Below are positions 3,001-6,000 of a stretch of 36,875 nt of DNA, one piece after another (the first letter of the stretch is position 1; every line of letters starts with the position of its first letter). The DNA is taken from NCBI GenBank assembly GCA_964519225.1, contig CAZFJK010000008.1, positions 1 to 36,875 of the forward strand. Direction: 5' to 3'. Position numbers: made by a program. This DNA comes from an uncultured Methanosarcinales archaeon (GTDB lineage Archaea; Nanobdellota; Nanobdellia; Woesearchaeales; B54-G15).

Positions 3001-6000
3001 AGTTTTCCACCTCATTTTGAGCTTGGAAAAATTGACTTGTTTAAAAATTTTTCTTGGTATTGACGATTTTTGGTTTTTCTAACATGGTTATAGCTTCTTT
3101 TTTAAAGAAGGCAATATATTTTGATTTGAAAGATTTAGAAAAGATTTTGAAAAGAATAAAAAAACAAAACCAAGACAACAGGAAGTAAGACCAATCTATT
3201 TGGCCCTTAAGGAGACCTCTATTTAAGAATTAAGGATTTGATCAACGCCTCTTTTGCGTAAAATTTTTAAAGGAGAAAAGAATAAAATCGCATCATGCGG
3301 AAAAGCTTTCTATCGCGGAAATAAGTCAAAATAAGCTAAATTTCCGTTGATAGAAAGCAAATAATGCCGATTACATACAATCAGCGCTCAAAAAATGCCC
3401 TGGTAGTGTAGTGGACTATCATGTGGCCCTGTCGAGGCCACGACCCGGGTTCGAAAGGGCCTATTCAAACAGAAAATAAAGGATGGGCTCTGGATGTCCC
3501 GGCCAGGGCGTGTGTGGGCCGGTAGCTCAGCCTGGTAGAGCACTCGGCTTTTAACCGAGTGGTCGCGAGTTCGAAGGCATCTTCCAAGAGGAAGATGCCG
3601 AATGTCTCGCCCGGCCCATTTTTTTCCAAATAAAAATGGGAAAGATCGATGTAACAAAACACGTACTTGTACCTAAACATACAAAATTAAGCGAAAAAGA
3701 GAAAGAGGCTCTGTTTGCTGGATACAATATAACTTTCAGAGAACTACCAAAGATTCTGAAAAGTGATCCCGCAATTGCGCATTTAAATCCAAAAGCAGGC
3801 GATGTCATCAAAATAGAAAGAAAAAGCAAAACTTCTGGAAAAGCAATTTATTATAGGGGGGTAGTTGGATGAAAGATTGCCATGAGGTTTTGATTAAAAA
3901 GTTCTTCGCTGAGCAAAGTTTTATTGATTCAAATATTGAATCCTTTAACAATTTTCTTGACAAAGAACTTCAGGCGATTATTGATGAAAACAAAGAGATT
4001 ATTCCGCCAATCATACCCCAGGATCTTGAAGAATTTAAGATCGGGCTTGAGAAAGTTCGTGTAATGAAACCAGAAATCATTGAGGCGGATGGCAGCAAAA
4101 GGTTGATCTTTCCAATGGAAGCAAGATTGAGAAAGCTAACATACGCAGCACCTATTTATCTTGATATGGTTAGCTATGTTAATGGTGTTCAAAGAGAGAA
4201 TTTTACTGTTTTGCTCGGAAACATGCCGATCATGCTGAAAAGCAAATATTGCCATTTACATGGAATGAGGGAGGAAGAATTAATCAAACACGGGGAAGAT
4301 CCTGATGATCCTGGAGGGTATTTCATTATCAACGGCACTGAAAAAGTTATTATTTGCATAGAAGACCTTGGAGCGAACAAGTTAATAGTGGATAAGAGTT
4401 CTGGGCCGAGCCCTTATGTTGGAAAGATCTTTTCTGAAAAGGGAAACTTGAAGATCCCACATACTATTGAGCGGATGAAGGATGGCATTTTTTACATTAC
4501 CTTTGCAAGGGTGAAGAGGGTTCCTCTTGTTTTAATCTTAAAAGGACTTGGTGTCACAAAGGATGAAGACATTCTTAATTTTGTTTCAAAGGAAAAGAAA
4601 TACGATGAGGTTATAATCAATCTTGTAAGTTTTGCAAATGTAAAAAGCGCAGAGGAAGCTTTGGACAAGATCGGAAAGACGGTTGGGATCACACAGCCTA
4701 AAGAAACACGCATAGAACGAATGAGAGAAATGCTCGACAAATATTTATTGCCCCATCTTGGAAACAGGCCTGAAGATAGAATTTACAAAGCTATAAATCT
4801 TTGTAAAATAGTTAAGCGTTATATCGACGCCGTTAATGAGGAGATGTCCGATGATAAAGATCATTATATGAACAAACGATTAAAGCTGAGTGGCGACTTG
4901 CTTGCTGACTTGTTTAGGGTTAATCTCAAAATATTGCTCGGAGATCTACTTTACAATTTTCAGCGAATGGTTAAGAGAGGAAAATTCCCTTCGATTAAAA
5001 GCATTTTAAGAAATAAACTTTTAACATCAAGGATATACTCTGCAATGGCGACAGGAAATTGGCCTGGAAATAGACAGGGAATTTGTCAAAGAATTCAGAG
5101 GCTTAATTTTGTTGAAACACTCAGCCATCTGCAAAGAGTAATTAGTCCACTTAGCAGCGAACAAGAAAACTTTGAGGCAAGAGAATTGCATGCTACACAC
5201 TTAGGAAGGCTATGCCCTATTGAAACGCCCGAAGGAACACCTATCGGATTGAGAAAAAATCTTGCTTTGTTTTGTATAATAAGTCACGATAGTGATGAGG
5301 GTGTTATATTAAATGAATTAAAAAAACTTGGTGTTAGAACAACGATTTAAAATGCCGGCAGATGTTTACATAAACGGAAAGTATGTTGGCGAAGTAGATG
5401 ATCCAACGTTCTTTGTAGATTTATTTAAAACTGAAAGACGTCGTGGCACAATTCCGTCAAATGTTAATATCTATTACGACGAAGACCTTAATGAAGTAAG
5501 AGTCGAGGGCGAAAGAGGTAGGGCTAGAAGACCTCTAATCGTGGTGAAGGATGGGGTTCCTTTGCTGACTGAAAAACACATTGAGCAAATCAAGAAAGGC
5601 GAGCTTGGTTGGAATGACTTAATTCAGCAAGGGGTTATAGAATTCTTGGATGCTGCTGAAGAAGAAAATGCCTTTGTTGCTTTTAGCGAGGATGAACTAA
5701 CACCAGAGCATACGCACTTGGAAATCACACCTTTTGCTATGTTTAGTTTATCAACGAGCATGGTTCCTTTTGCTAACCATACACCAACACCGAGAGTCAA
5801 TTATGGTGGTAAAAACATTAAGCAAGGAGTGGGGCTTTATGTAGCAAACTATTTGATTAGGATGGATATGGATGTAAATTTGCTGCATTATCCTCAAATT
5901 CCAATTGTGCAAACCATTACTTACACTGTTTCTAATTATGCTGCTAGACCTGCGGGACAGAATGTTGTTGTTGCGATAATGAGTTATGAAGGTTACAATA

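What a model noticed while it worked through the whole genome (the two positions that open the first line are those of the whole stretch)
3397..3618. Ten tRNA genes hidden by T-loop (59/60) introns
Ten tRNA genes carry a 29-112-nt intron between T-loop positions 59 and 60, so standard tools miss or mis-end them. They are Asp-GTC, Lys-TTT, Glu-CTC, Glu-TTC, Gln-CTG, Gln-TTG, Pro-TGG, Ser-GCT, Leu-GAG and Leu-TAG. Each intron forms a full bulge-helix-bulge motif whose outer helix is the T stem. Without these genes the genome appears to lack tRNA-Asp and tRNA-Glu.
Evidence so far: Coordinates, with intron length in nt: - C8:3397-3510(+), 41 - C8:3516-3618(+), 29 - C2:66559-66683(+), 50 - C2:8918-9039(-), 49 - C6:28535-28658(-), 49 - C9:28330-28458(+), 44 - C9:12458-12592(-), 50 - C12:11709-11842(+), 50 - C18:9481-9665(+), 112 - C25:5117-5236(+), 45 In all ten the 4-bp helix pairs 4 of 4 and both bulges are 3 nt. 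After the intron is removed ARAGORN calls each as a full tRNA. A genome-wide rerun returns the same ten plus 3 artefacts. ARAGORN finds 31 tRNAs, or 36 with intron search, and none for Asp or Glu. Rfam tRNA: one of the ten passes as a truncated match, six score 16-29 bits, and three give nothing. The same intron position occurs in tRNA-Asp or tRNA-Lys of 9 of [...]
(Added by a program. Inside this text positions count along the whole contig: contig position 1 is position 1 of the stretch shown here. "Call 12" and the like, gene names such as g00115 and contig names such as C1 are that model's own, and its searches are not shown. The text may have been shortened before it was handed on; [...] marks where a part breaks off. 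The agent that wrote the report below was given it as the finding of a first reader that could run no searches.)

Follow-up and report, generated by a model that had tools for sequence, protein, structure and literature searches.

The report
T-loop introns in Woesearchaeota tRNA genes
Many tRNA genes of this tiny DPANN archaeon are interrupted in the T-loop by short protein-spliced introns, a known kind of archaeal intron that simple tRNA finders miss and that here seems to have spread recently between genes.

Summary
At 3397-3510 and 3516-3618 lie tRNA-Asp(GTC) and tRNA-Lys(TTT), each split between T-loop positions 59 and 60 by a 41-nt or 29-nt insert. All ten listed loci pass the same test: T stem 5/5, central helix 4/4, and a full tRNA after excision. 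Reversed and shuffled genomes give no calls.

I add an eleventh gene, the "missing" tRNA-Ala(TGC) in the 16S-23S spacer, with introns at 37/38 and 59/60. I also re-identify ARAGORN's "His" as tRNA-Ile(TAT) with two introns.

No RNA data exist, but the comparative evidence is strong. The congener has intron-less Glu-TTC, Leu-GAG and Leu-TAG genes that run straight across the predicted junctions.

Six introns form one sequence family that is nearly identical across Gln, Leu and Glu genes. It was found in 3 of 301 genomes of the order, which suggests recent spread.

The genome encodes one 174-aa M. jannaschii-like EndA, without the known specificity loops, plus RtcB.

59/60 introns and intron transposition are already published (ARMAN-2, Thermoproteales). 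This is a new member of a known kind.

The parts
3397..3455 (+). tRNA-Asp(GTC) 5' exon (positions 1-59; T-stem 5' strand 3445-3449, T-loop 54-57 = 3450-3453)
   Evidence: ARAGORN calls Asp(gtc), 73 nt, after excision
3456..3496 (+). 41-nt intron at 59/60 of tRNA-Asp. Inner helix 3457-3466 / 3481-3490 (10 bp). 3491-3494 pairs with T-loop 54-57. Bulges at 3454-3456 and 3495-3497.
   Evidence: G001 has a compensatory change at pair 3461-3486, C-G to U-A. Variants in runs X5/X6 keep the pairs.
3497..3510 (+). tRNA-Asp 3' exon (positions 60-73; T-stem 3' strand 3498-3502)
   Evidence: A relative's intron-less Asp gene runs from 3455 directly into this sequence (tables 5 and 5c).
3516..3575 (+). tRNA-Lys(TTT) 5' exon (to position 59; T-stem 5' strand 3565-3569, T-loop 54-57 = 3570-3573)
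   Evidence: Rfam 28.6 bits, truncated reading
3576..3604 (+). 29-nt intron at 59/60 of tRNA-Lys. Inner helix 3577-3585 / 3590-3598 (9 bp). 3599-3602 pairs with T-loop 54-57. Bulges at 3574-3576 and 3603-3605.
   Evidence: The same intron is in G001, with C-G to U-G at 3581 and a loop change at 3588.
3605..3618 (+). tRNA-Lys 3' exon (positions 60-73)
3619..3625 (+). Run of seven T directly after tRNA-Lys, a likely transcription stop. Asp and Lys are 5 nt apart, so they are probably one transcript (inference).
   Evidence: sequence only
3636..3872 (+). rpoH (Rpb5 C-terminal domain), followed by the split rpoB genes at 3869-5350 and 5328-7157. This conserved neighbourhood was used for the survey of related loci.

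Best explanation
These are ordinary archaeal protein-spliced tRNA introns at the non-canonical T-loop site 59/60, in a Woesearchaeota (DPANN) genome.

In the pre-tRNA the T stem forms the outer helix. The near-universal T-loop nucleotides 54-57 (TTCG or TTCA) pair with four intron nucleotides (CGAA, TGAA or TGGA) that lie two bases before the intron's 3' end. Nucleotides 58-59 plus the first intron base form the 5' bulge. The last two intron bases plus nucleotide 60 form the 3' bulge.

The splicing endonuclease EndA would cut two bases into each bulge, and RtcB would join the exons, restoring a normal 7-nt T-loop.

Shown: the geometry, restoration of canonical tRNAs, the presence of EndA and RtcB genes, and intron-less orthologues that run straight across the predicted junctions. 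Inferred: the cleavage and ligation themselves.

Because both helices on the exon side are features common to all tRNAs, the same intron can be spliced from any tRNA gene. I propose this as the reason one about-50-nt intron family now sits in six genes for three amino acids, and why 11 of the 17 introns in this genome are at this one site.
For: Geometry and restoration:
- Ten of ten listed loci plus Ala-TGC have T stem 5/5 and central helix 4/4, and give a canonical tRNA after excision.
- Reversed and shuffled genomes give 0 calls.
- The BHB conformation lies 0-3.5 kcal/mol above the unconstrained MFE in 11 of 11.

Need for these genes:
- They are the only Asp, Glu, Gln, Lys-TTT, Pro-TGG, Ser-GCT, Leu-GAG, Leu-TAG and Ala-TGC genes found.
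- The second Gln-CTG, on C31, is a bacterial-type tRNA on a contaminant contig.

Comparison with congener G001:
- The aligned exons are identical in eight of the nine T-loop pairs. Lys differs only by paired changes in the anticodon stem.
- Introns vary between the two genomes.
- There is one compensatory C-G to U-A change in the Asp inner helix.
- Glu-TTC, Leu-GAG and Leu-TAG lack the intron exactly at 59/60.

Independent DNA:
- The locus with both introns occurs in runs from 3 studies.
- All three substitutions in intron helices keep the pair.
- A relative's contig carries Asp without the intron, across the predicted junction.

Spread in the lineage: a clean 59/60 intron in Asp or Lys is found in 16 of 80 syntenic Woesearchaeota loci.

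Enzymes: one EndA with both Pfam domains, and RtcB.

Precedent: a 59/60 intron of ARMAN-2 tRNA-Cys was cleaved in vitro by its EndA (PMC3239211, passages read).
Against: - No RNA evidence. No RNA run is listed for this DNA, so neither splicing nor mature tRNAs have been seen.
- Unconstrained MFE folding forms the 4-bp central helix in only 4 of 10.
- Five of the 11 introns lack the inner helix. The only EndA found is a 174-aa single-unit enzyme that aligns without a gap to M. jannaschii EndA over the Tyr-His loop and lacks the N. equitans basic loop. The literature says alpha4 enzymes need the strict 3-4-3 hBHBh' motif (PMC3239211, PMC3488258, passages). So either this enzyme is broader than expected or something is missing from the assembly.
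- In the family introns, sequence alone allows the cut at 57/58, 58/59 or 59/60. Only the BHB geometry selects 59/60.
Confidence: 0.9

Rival explanations
1. The inserts are disruptions, not introns. On this view the genes are pseudogenes broken by a small insertion element, and the functional copies lie in unassembled parts of the genome.
For: The genome is a 53-contig draft, 97% complete. At least one tRNA (Thr-TGT) is cut by a contig end. The elongator Met and Arg-CCG were not found.
Against: Eleven different tRNAs would all have to have unassembled twins. The aligned exons match G001's fully in eight of nine pairs while the introns diverge. Every insert sits at the one position and in the one register that creates a 3-4-3 motif. 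Helix changes are compensatory or pair-preserving. The family has no copies outside tRNA T-loops.
Confidence: 0.03
2. The shared intron family reflects old common presence followed by loss in G001. On this view there were no recent gains in G000, and no intron has moved.
For: Presence or absence between two genomes cannot be polarised without an outgroup that carries the family. Precise intron loss is conceivable. G001 is only 81% complete.
Against: The Leu-GAG and Leu-TAG introns are identical (50/50) and match G000's own Gln-CTG intron 49/49, while their host tRNAs match only 46-51 of 73. The orthologous Gln-CTG introns of G000 and G001 have different central parts. So the Leu copies resemble G000's current version, not an ancestral one. 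That needs transfer of sequence between loci after the two genomes split, even under a loss scenario. The family was found in 3 of 301 genomes of the order, one of them only a 24-nt match.
Confidence: 0.2
3. The endonuclease is not a homotetramer of the 174-aa protein. A structural beta subunit or a second enzyme was missed, and that explains how the relaxed motifs are cut.
For: The best PDB match is the alpha subunit of the heterotetrameric N. equitans enzyme, at E 4.8e-36 against 9.5e-35 for M. jannaschii alpha4. Beta subunits can be very divergent. The assembly is a draft.
Against: No second EndA-like frame was found. The Pfam N- and C-domain searches gave one locus. A protein self-search gave one hit. 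phmmer --max against 3,784 stop-to-stop frames gave a next-best E of 1.7. By contrast, the N. equitans beta subunit matches this protein at 8.7e-14, so a comparable paralogue should have been visible.
Confidence: 0.1
4. The inserts stay in the mature tRNA as an enlarged T-loop arm.
For: Nothing direct. It cannot be excluded without RNA data.
Against: It would destroy the 7-nt T-loop. It would not explain the conserved 3-4-3 register, the free variation in insert length from 13 to 112 nt here and 14 to 131 nt in relatives, or the orthologues that lack the insert precisely.
Confidence: 0.02

Closest known systems
59/60 introns of Candidatus Micrarchaeum acidiphilum ARMAN-2 (tRNA-Cys 13 nt, hBH; tRNA-Pro(GGG) with 53/54 + 59/60, strict). 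Fujishima et al. 2011, PMC3239211, passages read.
   Same: Same intron position, in another DPANN archaeon. Both strict and relaxed motifs occur. The 13-nt hBH-type intron matches the Ala-TGC intron found here in length and type. That genome also has tRNA-Ile(UAU) with a canonical intron. Cleavage at 59/60 was shown in vitro there.
   Different: ARMAN-2 uses a three-unit epsilon2 EndA with a specificity loop. Here the only EndA is a 174-aa single unit without that loop or the N. equitans loop. Here 59/60 dominates, with 11 of 17 introns, and one intron family is shared by six genes.
[quoted passage not shown] Fujishima et al. 2010, Mol Biol Evol; seen only as described in the reviews PMC4090602 and PMC4033280, passages.
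   Same: Near-identical intron sequences sit in tRNA genes of different isotypes whose exons are not closely related, which was read as intron gain at the DNA level.
   Different: A different phylum (Crenarchaeota), with (alpha-beta)2 EndA carrying the Crenarchaea-specific loop, and with many intron positions. Here there is a single position, the family is restricted to one genus, and presence or absence differs between two congeners. I could not read the primary paper, so I do not know whether it discusses 59/60 or the use of T-loop bases in the central helix.
Canonical 37/38 archaeal tRNA introns cut by alpha4 EndA (M. jannaschii type)
   Same: The same 3-4-3 bulge-helix-bulge logic and the same enzyme family. 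This genome has five of them: Tyr, Leu-TAA, Leu-CAA, Ile-TAT and Ala-TGC.
   Different: At 37/38 the exon strand of the central helix is anticodon-loop sequence, which differs between tRNAs. At 59/60 it is the near-invariant T-loop, so the intron needs no adaptation to its host (inference).

Membership tests
Archaeal EndA-dependent (BHB) tRNA intron | Two 3-nt bulges separated by a 4-bp helix, with splice sites two bases into each bulge | tested here: met
   Central helix 4/4 and outer helix (T stem) 5/5 in 11 of 11. The constrained BHB fold lies 0-3.5 kcal/mol above the MFE.
Archaeal EndA-dependent (BHB) tRNA intron | Excision restores a canonical cloverleaf with a 7-nt T-loop | tested here: met
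   ARAGORN calls full tRNAs for 10 of 10 and for Ala-TGC. Shuffled and reversed controls give 0 calls.
Archaeal EndA-dependent (BHB) tRNA intron | Host encodes the splicing endonuclease and an RNA ligase | tested here: met
   EndA at C3:49003-49524(-) has PF02778 + PF01974. RtcB (PF01139) is on C1.
Archaeal EndA-dependent (BHB) tRNA intron | Intron is removed from the RNA | not testable with these tools
   No RNA run is listed for this DNA. The only indirect support is intron-less orthologues that run straight across the predicted junctions.
Strict hBHBh' subclass (the substrate of alpha4 and alpha'2 EndA) | Inner helix h' of at least 2 bp stacked on the 5' bulge | tested here: not met
   Met in 6 of 11 (Asp 10 bp, Lys 9, Ser 8, Pro 7, Glu-CTC 5, Glu-TTC 5). 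Not met in 5 of 11 (Gln-CTG, Gln-TTG, Leu-GAG, Leu-TAG, Ala-TGC), where the 5' site lies in a 6x2 internal loop or a hairpin loop. Those five are relaxed hBH-like motifs.
Transposed tRNA intron family (as described for Thermoproteales) | Introns more alike than their host tRNAs, across isotypes | tested here: met
   Introns match 49/49-50/50 against hosts 46-51 of 73 for Gln-CTG, Leu-GAG and Leu-TAG. The Glu pair matches 46/49. The Gln-TTG intron is a tandem of both subtypes. There are no copies outside tRNA genes.
Transposed tRNA intron family (as described for Thermoproteales) | Presence or absence differs between close relatives | tested here: met
   Glu-TTC, Leu-GAG and Leu-TAG lack the intron in G001. 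The family occurs in 3 of 301 genomes of the order. The direction, gain or loss, is inferred.
alpha4 homotetrameric EndA | A single gene of about 170-180 aa with both domains, no second subunit, and assembly into a homotetramer | tested here: inconclusive
   One 174-aa gene and no paralogue. It aligns to M. jannaschii EndA 27-171 with no gap in the Tyr-His loop. The oligomeric state was not tested.
Self-splicing group I or II intron | Ribozyme core detectable; size of hundreds of nt | tested here: not met
   The inserts are 13-112 nt. Rfam at E<=10 over these loci lists no intron family.
Split or permuted tRNA gene | Halves at separate loci or in reversed order | tested here: not met
   Both exons are contiguous, in order and on one strand at all 11 loci.

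The most novel reading that the evidence does not exclude
A portable T-loop intron is moving between tRNA genes within one Woesearchaeota genus. Its exon-side recognition elements (T stem plus T-loop 54-57) are common to all tRNAs, so any tRNA gene can serve as a landing site. Three of its six host genes in G000 are intron-free in the congener.

The organism's only splicing endonuclease is a loop-less, M. jannaschii-like single-unit EndA, yet it must process five relaxed (hBH) motifs at a non-canonical site. That would mean substrate breadth does not require any of the three known specificity loops. It would also give a natural before-and-after system for studying how archaeal tRNA introns are gained.
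Probability: 0.4. Interest if true: 0.6.

Novelty: new member of a known kind. Interest (0 to 1): 0.45.

Why it matters
Annotation. Incomplete tRNA sets in DPANN genomes are a recurring puzzle.
- Kaneta et al. 2018 wrote that such gaps point to unidentified disrupted tRNA genes needing manual curation (PMC5829648, section 16 read).
- A 2026 preprint on 208 complete Nanobdellota genomes reports a median of 35 tRNAs per genome with tRNAscan-SE and considers split tRNAs or loss (10.64898/2026.05.13.725050, passages read).
- Here a simple BHB-aware excision raises the archaeal set to 43 anticodons and explains most of the gaps without invoking split genes.

Evolution. Two congeners differ by precise presence or absence of the same intron family. 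That makes archaeal tRNA intron gain and loss, whose mechanism is unknown, directly comparable at the sequence level.

Enzymology. Pairing a loop-less single-unit EndA with relaxed motifs at a non-canonical site tests the published rule that only (alpha-beta)2 and epsilon2 enzymes handle such introns.

Tried and rejected
- RNA evidence: no RNA holder is listed for window 3300-3900, so splicing could not be observed.
- Marck & Grosjean 2003 (PMC1370505) is not held. Fujishima 2010 was seen only through reviews.
- Unconstrained MFE folding as a test of the BHB: it forms the central helix in only 4 of 10. I replaced it with constrained-energy differences.
- Candidates for more hidden tRNAs, all rejected:
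  - C6:26601-26771, ARAGORN's 'Lys(ctt) i(29,80)': no Rfam hit at E<=10, and an intact Lys-CTT is at C22:2-77.
  - C7:23075-23284 'Ala(tgc)', C22:2345-2466 and C5:18356-18514: no Rfam hit.
  - Five AT-rich hits from the T-arm plus acceptor scan.
  - About 30 weak, G.U-rich closures.
- G001's 'tRNA-His(atg)' as a hidden elongator Met: poor stems, AT-rich, and no ARAGORN call on the G000 counterpart.
- Anticodon-arm and 5'-half regex scans for CAT found only the initiator.
- C31 Gln-CTG as an intron-less allele: rejected. It matches the spliced C2 gene at only 23 of 73 positions and has U1.A72 and an encoded CCA, on a 39.8% GC contig.
- Not done: I did not run complex prediction on four EndA copies, because a pass would rest on likeness to 1a79 and would not exclude a beta subunit. 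tRNAscan-SE was not available. Figure 7 and the supplements of Kaneta 2018, which may list the intron positions of their Woesearchaeota genome, were not seen.
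Full report
WHAT IS THERE

Reading the window shows two head-to-tail tRNA genes 5 nt apart, followed by a run of seven T and then rpoH and the split rpoB genes (Pfam). Each gene has a normal acceptor stem, D arm and anticodon arm (GTC and TTT). Each T arm is split: the 5' strand of the T stem and T-loop bases 54-59 are separated from base 60 and the 3' strand by 41 nt (3456-3496) or 29 nt (3576-3604).

ARAGORN and Rfam at gathering threshold see neither gene. 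At E<=10 Rfam gives truncated readings of 28.6 bits (Lys) and 21.2 bits (Asp).

TEST OF ALL TEN LOCI

A script imposed the bulge-helix-bulge (BHB) register on each listed locus and excised the insert by coordinates.
- In 10 of 10 the T stem pairs 5/5.
- In 10 of 10 the four bases 54-57 pair 4/4 with the four intron bases that lie two before the intron's end.
- ARAGORN then calls Asp-GTC, Lys-TTT, Glu-CTC, Gln-CTG, Glu-TTC, Ser-GCT, Leu-GAG, Leu-TAG, Gln-TTG and Pro-TGG.
- Unspliced, only Leu-TAG is called, with a wrong end.

GENOME-WIDE SCANS AND CONTROLS

- A position-free BHB scan with an inner helix of at least 2 bp finds 6 of the ten plus the canonical Leu-CAA intron.
- Without the inner-helix requirement it finds all ten plus the canonical Tyr, Leu-TAA and Leu-CAA introns. 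The many other calls are artefacts that mostly overlap intact tRNAs.
- With strict T-loop criteria the real genome gives 9 of the ten and one chimera. The reversed and the shuffled genome each give 0 calls out of 73,981 and 62,928 candidates.

The signal is not chance.

ANATOMY, AND ONE CORRECTION

The intron strand of the central helix is:
- CGAA in six genes (Lys, Gln-CTG, Gln-TTG, Leu-GAG, Leu-TAG, Ala-TGC);
- TGAA in the three genes whose T-loop is TTCA (Glu-CTC, Glu-TTC, Pro);
- TGGA in two (Asp, Ser).

Unconstrained MFE folds keep the T stem in all ten local folds but form the central helix in only 4 of 10. When the BHB is enforced, the energy is 0-3.5 kcal/mol above the MFE in 11 of 11.

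The inner helix stacked on the 5' bulge is 5-10 bp in Asp, Lys, Ser, Pro, Glu-CTC and Glu-TTC. In Gln-CTG, Gln-TTG, Leu-GAG and Leu-TAG it is a single U-A pair at best, followed by a 2x1 loop and a 9-bp helix. In the thermodynamic fold the 5' splice site lies in a 6x2 internal loop.

The other four are relaxed, hBH-like.

In the family introns the exon ends in AA and the intron ends in AA. Sequence alone therefore allows the cut at 57/58, 58/59 or 59/60, and the BHB register selects 59/60. In Asp and Lys the position is unique.

MORE GENES FOUND

1. The 'missing' tRNA-Ala(TGC) lies in the 16S-23S spacer at C6:23371-23488(-). It has G3.U70, a canonical 31-nt intron at 37/38, and a 13-nt intron at 59/60 that is too short for any inner helix. 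After both are excised ARAGORN calls Ala(tgc), 74 nt. A T-loop scan combined with ARAGORN -i finds it independently. That makes eleven 59/60 introns.

2. ARAGORN's intron-containing 'His(gtg)' at C6:28727-28879(-) is really tRNA-Ile(TAT). It has a 33-nt strict-BHB intron at 29/30 and a 45-nt intron at 37/38. Infernal aligned only the outer 3 bp of the anticodon stem, with 89 nt between. After both are excised ARAGORN calls Ile(tat), 75 nt, with a perfect anticodon stem. TiaS was not detected, which fits decoding of AUA by a UAU anticodon.

3. Contigs C31 and C42 carry bacterial-type tRNAs (Gln-CTG and Ser-GGA) with an encoded CCA; the Gln also has U1.A72. Their GC is about 40%. They are contaminants.

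4. Thr-TGT is cut off by the end of contig C18. Arg-CCG, present with an intron in G001, has no match in G000. The one Met gene has A1.U72 and three G-C pairs in the anticodon stem, which I recognise from recall as the archaeal initiator pattern. An elongator Met was found in neither genome.

The archaeal set is then 43 anticodons. Fifteen genes have introns, 17 introns in all: 11 at 59/60, 5 at 37/38 and 1 at 29/30. This is my tally.

WHO IT IS, AND HOW WIDESPREAD THE TRAIT IS

The closest RpoB' relatives are titled Woesearchaeota, Nanoarchaeota or Nanoarchaeia MAGs. G000 is 97% complete with 1.6% contamination. It has one same-genus relative, G001; all other relatives are in the same order but in different families.

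In 80 syntenic rpoB loci:
- 16 have a clean 59/60 intron in Asp or Lys, meaning T stem 5/5, helix 4/4 and no overlap with an intron-less call. Their lengths are 14-131 nt.
- 15 have only intron-less Asp or Lys.
- 3 have odd calls.
- 46 gave no call. These may lack the tRNAs in the 3-kb flank or have layouts my scan misses.

The trait is frequent but patchy in the order.

COMPARATIVE SUPPORT FOR SPLICING

Independent DNA.
- The locus, with both inserts, is present in contigs of four DNA runs from three studies. Two of the runs may be the source of this assembly.
- In the two independent runs the intron differences are 3461 C>T, 3485 G>A, 3581 C>T and 3588 G>A. Three lie in helices and all three keep the pair; the fourth is in a loop.
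- One run holds a relative's contig in which Asp runs from 3455 straight into the 3' exon sequence.

Congener G001, fetched whole (59 contigs, 563,327 bases) and aligned gene by gene.
- Asp, Lys, Ser-GCT, Gln-CTG, Gln-TTG and Pro-TGG keep a 59/60 intron.
- The aligned exons are identical in eight of the nine T-loop pairs. Lys differs only by paired changes in the anticodon stem.
- The Asp inner helix has one fully compensatory change, C-G to U-A at 3461/3486.
- Glu-TTC, Leu-GAG and Leu-TAG are intron-less in G001, with an intact TTCRAAT loop. The Ile-TAT 29/30 intron is also precisely absent.
- No Glu-CTC orthologue was found in G001, which is 81% complete.

AN INTRON FAMILY

Six of the ten introns belong to one family.
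- The Gln-CTG, Leu-GAG and Leu-TAG introns match 49/49 to 50/50, while these tRNAs match only 46-51 of 73.
- Glu-CTC and Glu-TTC share a variant (46/49).
- The 112-nt Gln-TTG intron is a tandem of one copy of each subtype around a small hairpin.

BLAST and a regex find copies only inside these six genes. A search of 301 genomes of the order finds the family in G000, in G001, and as one 24-nt match in G145.

The orthologous Gln-CTG introns of G000 and G001 share their ends but have different centres. The two Leu introns of G000 equal G000's own Gln-CTG version, and they are absent in G001. The simplest reading is copying between loci in the G000 lineage after the split. Loss in G001 plus concerted evolution is the alternative, and I give it about 0.2.

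WHY THE T-LOOP (INFERENCE)

At 59/60 both exon-side elements of the motif are features every tRNA has: the T stem as outer helix, and T54-R57 as one strand of the central helix. An intron that ends in YGAA plus two bases is therefore spliceable from any tRNA gene. At 37/38, by contrast, the intron must match each host's anticodon loop. This would explain the dominance of one site and the ease of spread. I have not seen this argument in the passages I read. I could not read Fujishima 2010 or Marck & Grosjean 2003, so it may already be in print.

ENZYMES

There is one EndA gene (C3:49003-49524, 174 aa, PF02778 + PF01974) and no paralogue by three searches.

Its best PDB matches are the N. equitans alpha subunit (4.8e-36) and M. 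jannaschii alpha4 (9.5e-35). It aligns to the M. jannaschii enzyme over residues 29-174 with no gap between the catalytic Tyr and His. It is 6 residues shorter there than the basic N. equitans loop. Hirata 2012 places that loop at residues 90-98 (PMC3488258, passages), and Kaneta 2018 renames it L3 (PMC5829648, section 16).

So it looks like a plain alpha4-type enzyme. The oligomeric state is inferred, not tested.

RtcB is present as a 979-aa frame with a split match, possibly holding an intein.

WHAT IS KNOWN

- Non-canonical BHB introns in D-loops, T-loops and acceptor stems of archaeal tRNAs are textbook (PMC6379350 and PMC3488258, passages).
- 59/60 introns are described in the DPANN archaeon ARMAN-2, where tRNA-Cys was cleaved in vitro (PMC3239211, passages).
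- Intron families shared by unrelated tRNAs, read as transposition, are described for Thermoproteales (PMC4090602 and PMC4033280, passages).
- Kaneta 2018 ran tRNAscan-SE 2.0 on one Woesearchaeota genome and noted alpha4 EndAs with L3 in DPANN lineages that have many disrupted tRNAs.
- tRNAscan-SE 2.0 searches for non-canonical introns with BHB models trained on Crenarchaeota/Euryarchaeota and on Thaumarchaeota (PMC8450103, passages).
- My searches for Woesearchaeota or Woesearchaeales, or DPANN, with tRNA introns returned only Kaneta 2018 and a 2026 preprint that are relevant. The preprint reports incomplete tRNA sets without mentioning T-loop introns in the passages I saw.
- I found no report of an intron family or of 59/60 dominance in this lineage. 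The library lacks most subscription journals.

VERDICT

The finding is real and correctly read, with three amendments:
- There are eleven genes, not ten.
- Five of the eleven motifs are relaxed.
- The kind is known.

What is new is the lineage, the concentration at one site, the genus-restricted intron family that differs in presence between congeners, and its pairing with a loop-less single-unit EndA. The main gap is the absence of any RNA evidence.

Noticed in passing
G000 C6:23371-23488 (-), outside the window: tRNA-Ala(TGC) in the 16S-23S spacer, with G3.U70, a 31-nt intron at 37/38 and a 13-nt intron at 59/60 with no possible inner helix.
   Followed up: yes
G000 C6:28727-28879 (-), outside the window: ARAGORN's 'tRNA-His(gtg) with intron' is tRNA-Ile(TAT) with two introns (29/30, 33 nt, strict BHB; 37/38, 45 nt). 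In G001 the 29/30 intron is precisely absent and the 37/38 intron is 31 nt. TiaS (PF08489) was not detected in G000.
   Followed up: yes
G000 contigs C31 (6,366 b) and C42 (2,397 b): These contigs carry bacterial-type tRNAs (Gln-CTG and Ser-GGA) with an encoded CCA; the Gln also has U1.A72. GC is about 40% against 36.5% for the genome. They are probably contaminant contigs in the bin, so two of ARAGORN's 31 calls are foreign.
   Followed up: partly
G000 and G001, whole genomes: No elongator tRNA-Met was found in either congener. The only CAT tRNA (G000 C5:18619-18695) has the initiator pattern. Arg-CCG (present in G001 with an intron) has no match in G000. Thr-TGT is truncated by the end of contig C18.
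   Followed up: partly
G000 C1:43142-45922 (-): RtcB lies in one 979-aa open frame, but the Pfam match is split (profile 1-57 and 49-426) by roughly 480 codons, which suggests an intein. A second RtcB fragment sits at the end of contig C36.
   Followed up: no
window 3553 (runs X5, X6): Contigs of other organisms in two hydrothermal-vent metagenome runs carry 32 extra letters exactly between Lys-TTT positions 37 and 38, that is, a canonical intron in a related tRNA-Lys.
   Followed up: no
G001 C1:41181-41268 versus G000 C18:4003-4088 and C2:66456-66543: At the locus syntenic with G000's Ser-TGA (beside Arg-CCT, Val-GAC and Gln-TTG), G001 has a Ser-GGA gene that is 100% identical over 90 nt to G000's Ser-GGA on another contig. 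This suggests a rearrangement or an anticodon switch.
   Followed up: no
L040, L053, L054, L072, L077, L080, L105, L108 (Asp slot upstream of rpoH): After a 59/60 excision ARAGORN gives odd identities (Thr-tgt, Stop-tta, Ser-aga, Ala-ggc, Arg-tcg, Arg-cct) with 'mature' lengths over 90 nt. These are probably tRNA-Asp genes with a second intron elsewhere.
   Followed up: no
window 30218-30290 (-) and 34244-34329 (-): tRNA-Val(CAC) and tRNA-Leu(CAG) in the same window have no intron, so intron-containing and intron-free tRNA genes coexist on one contig.
   Followed up: no
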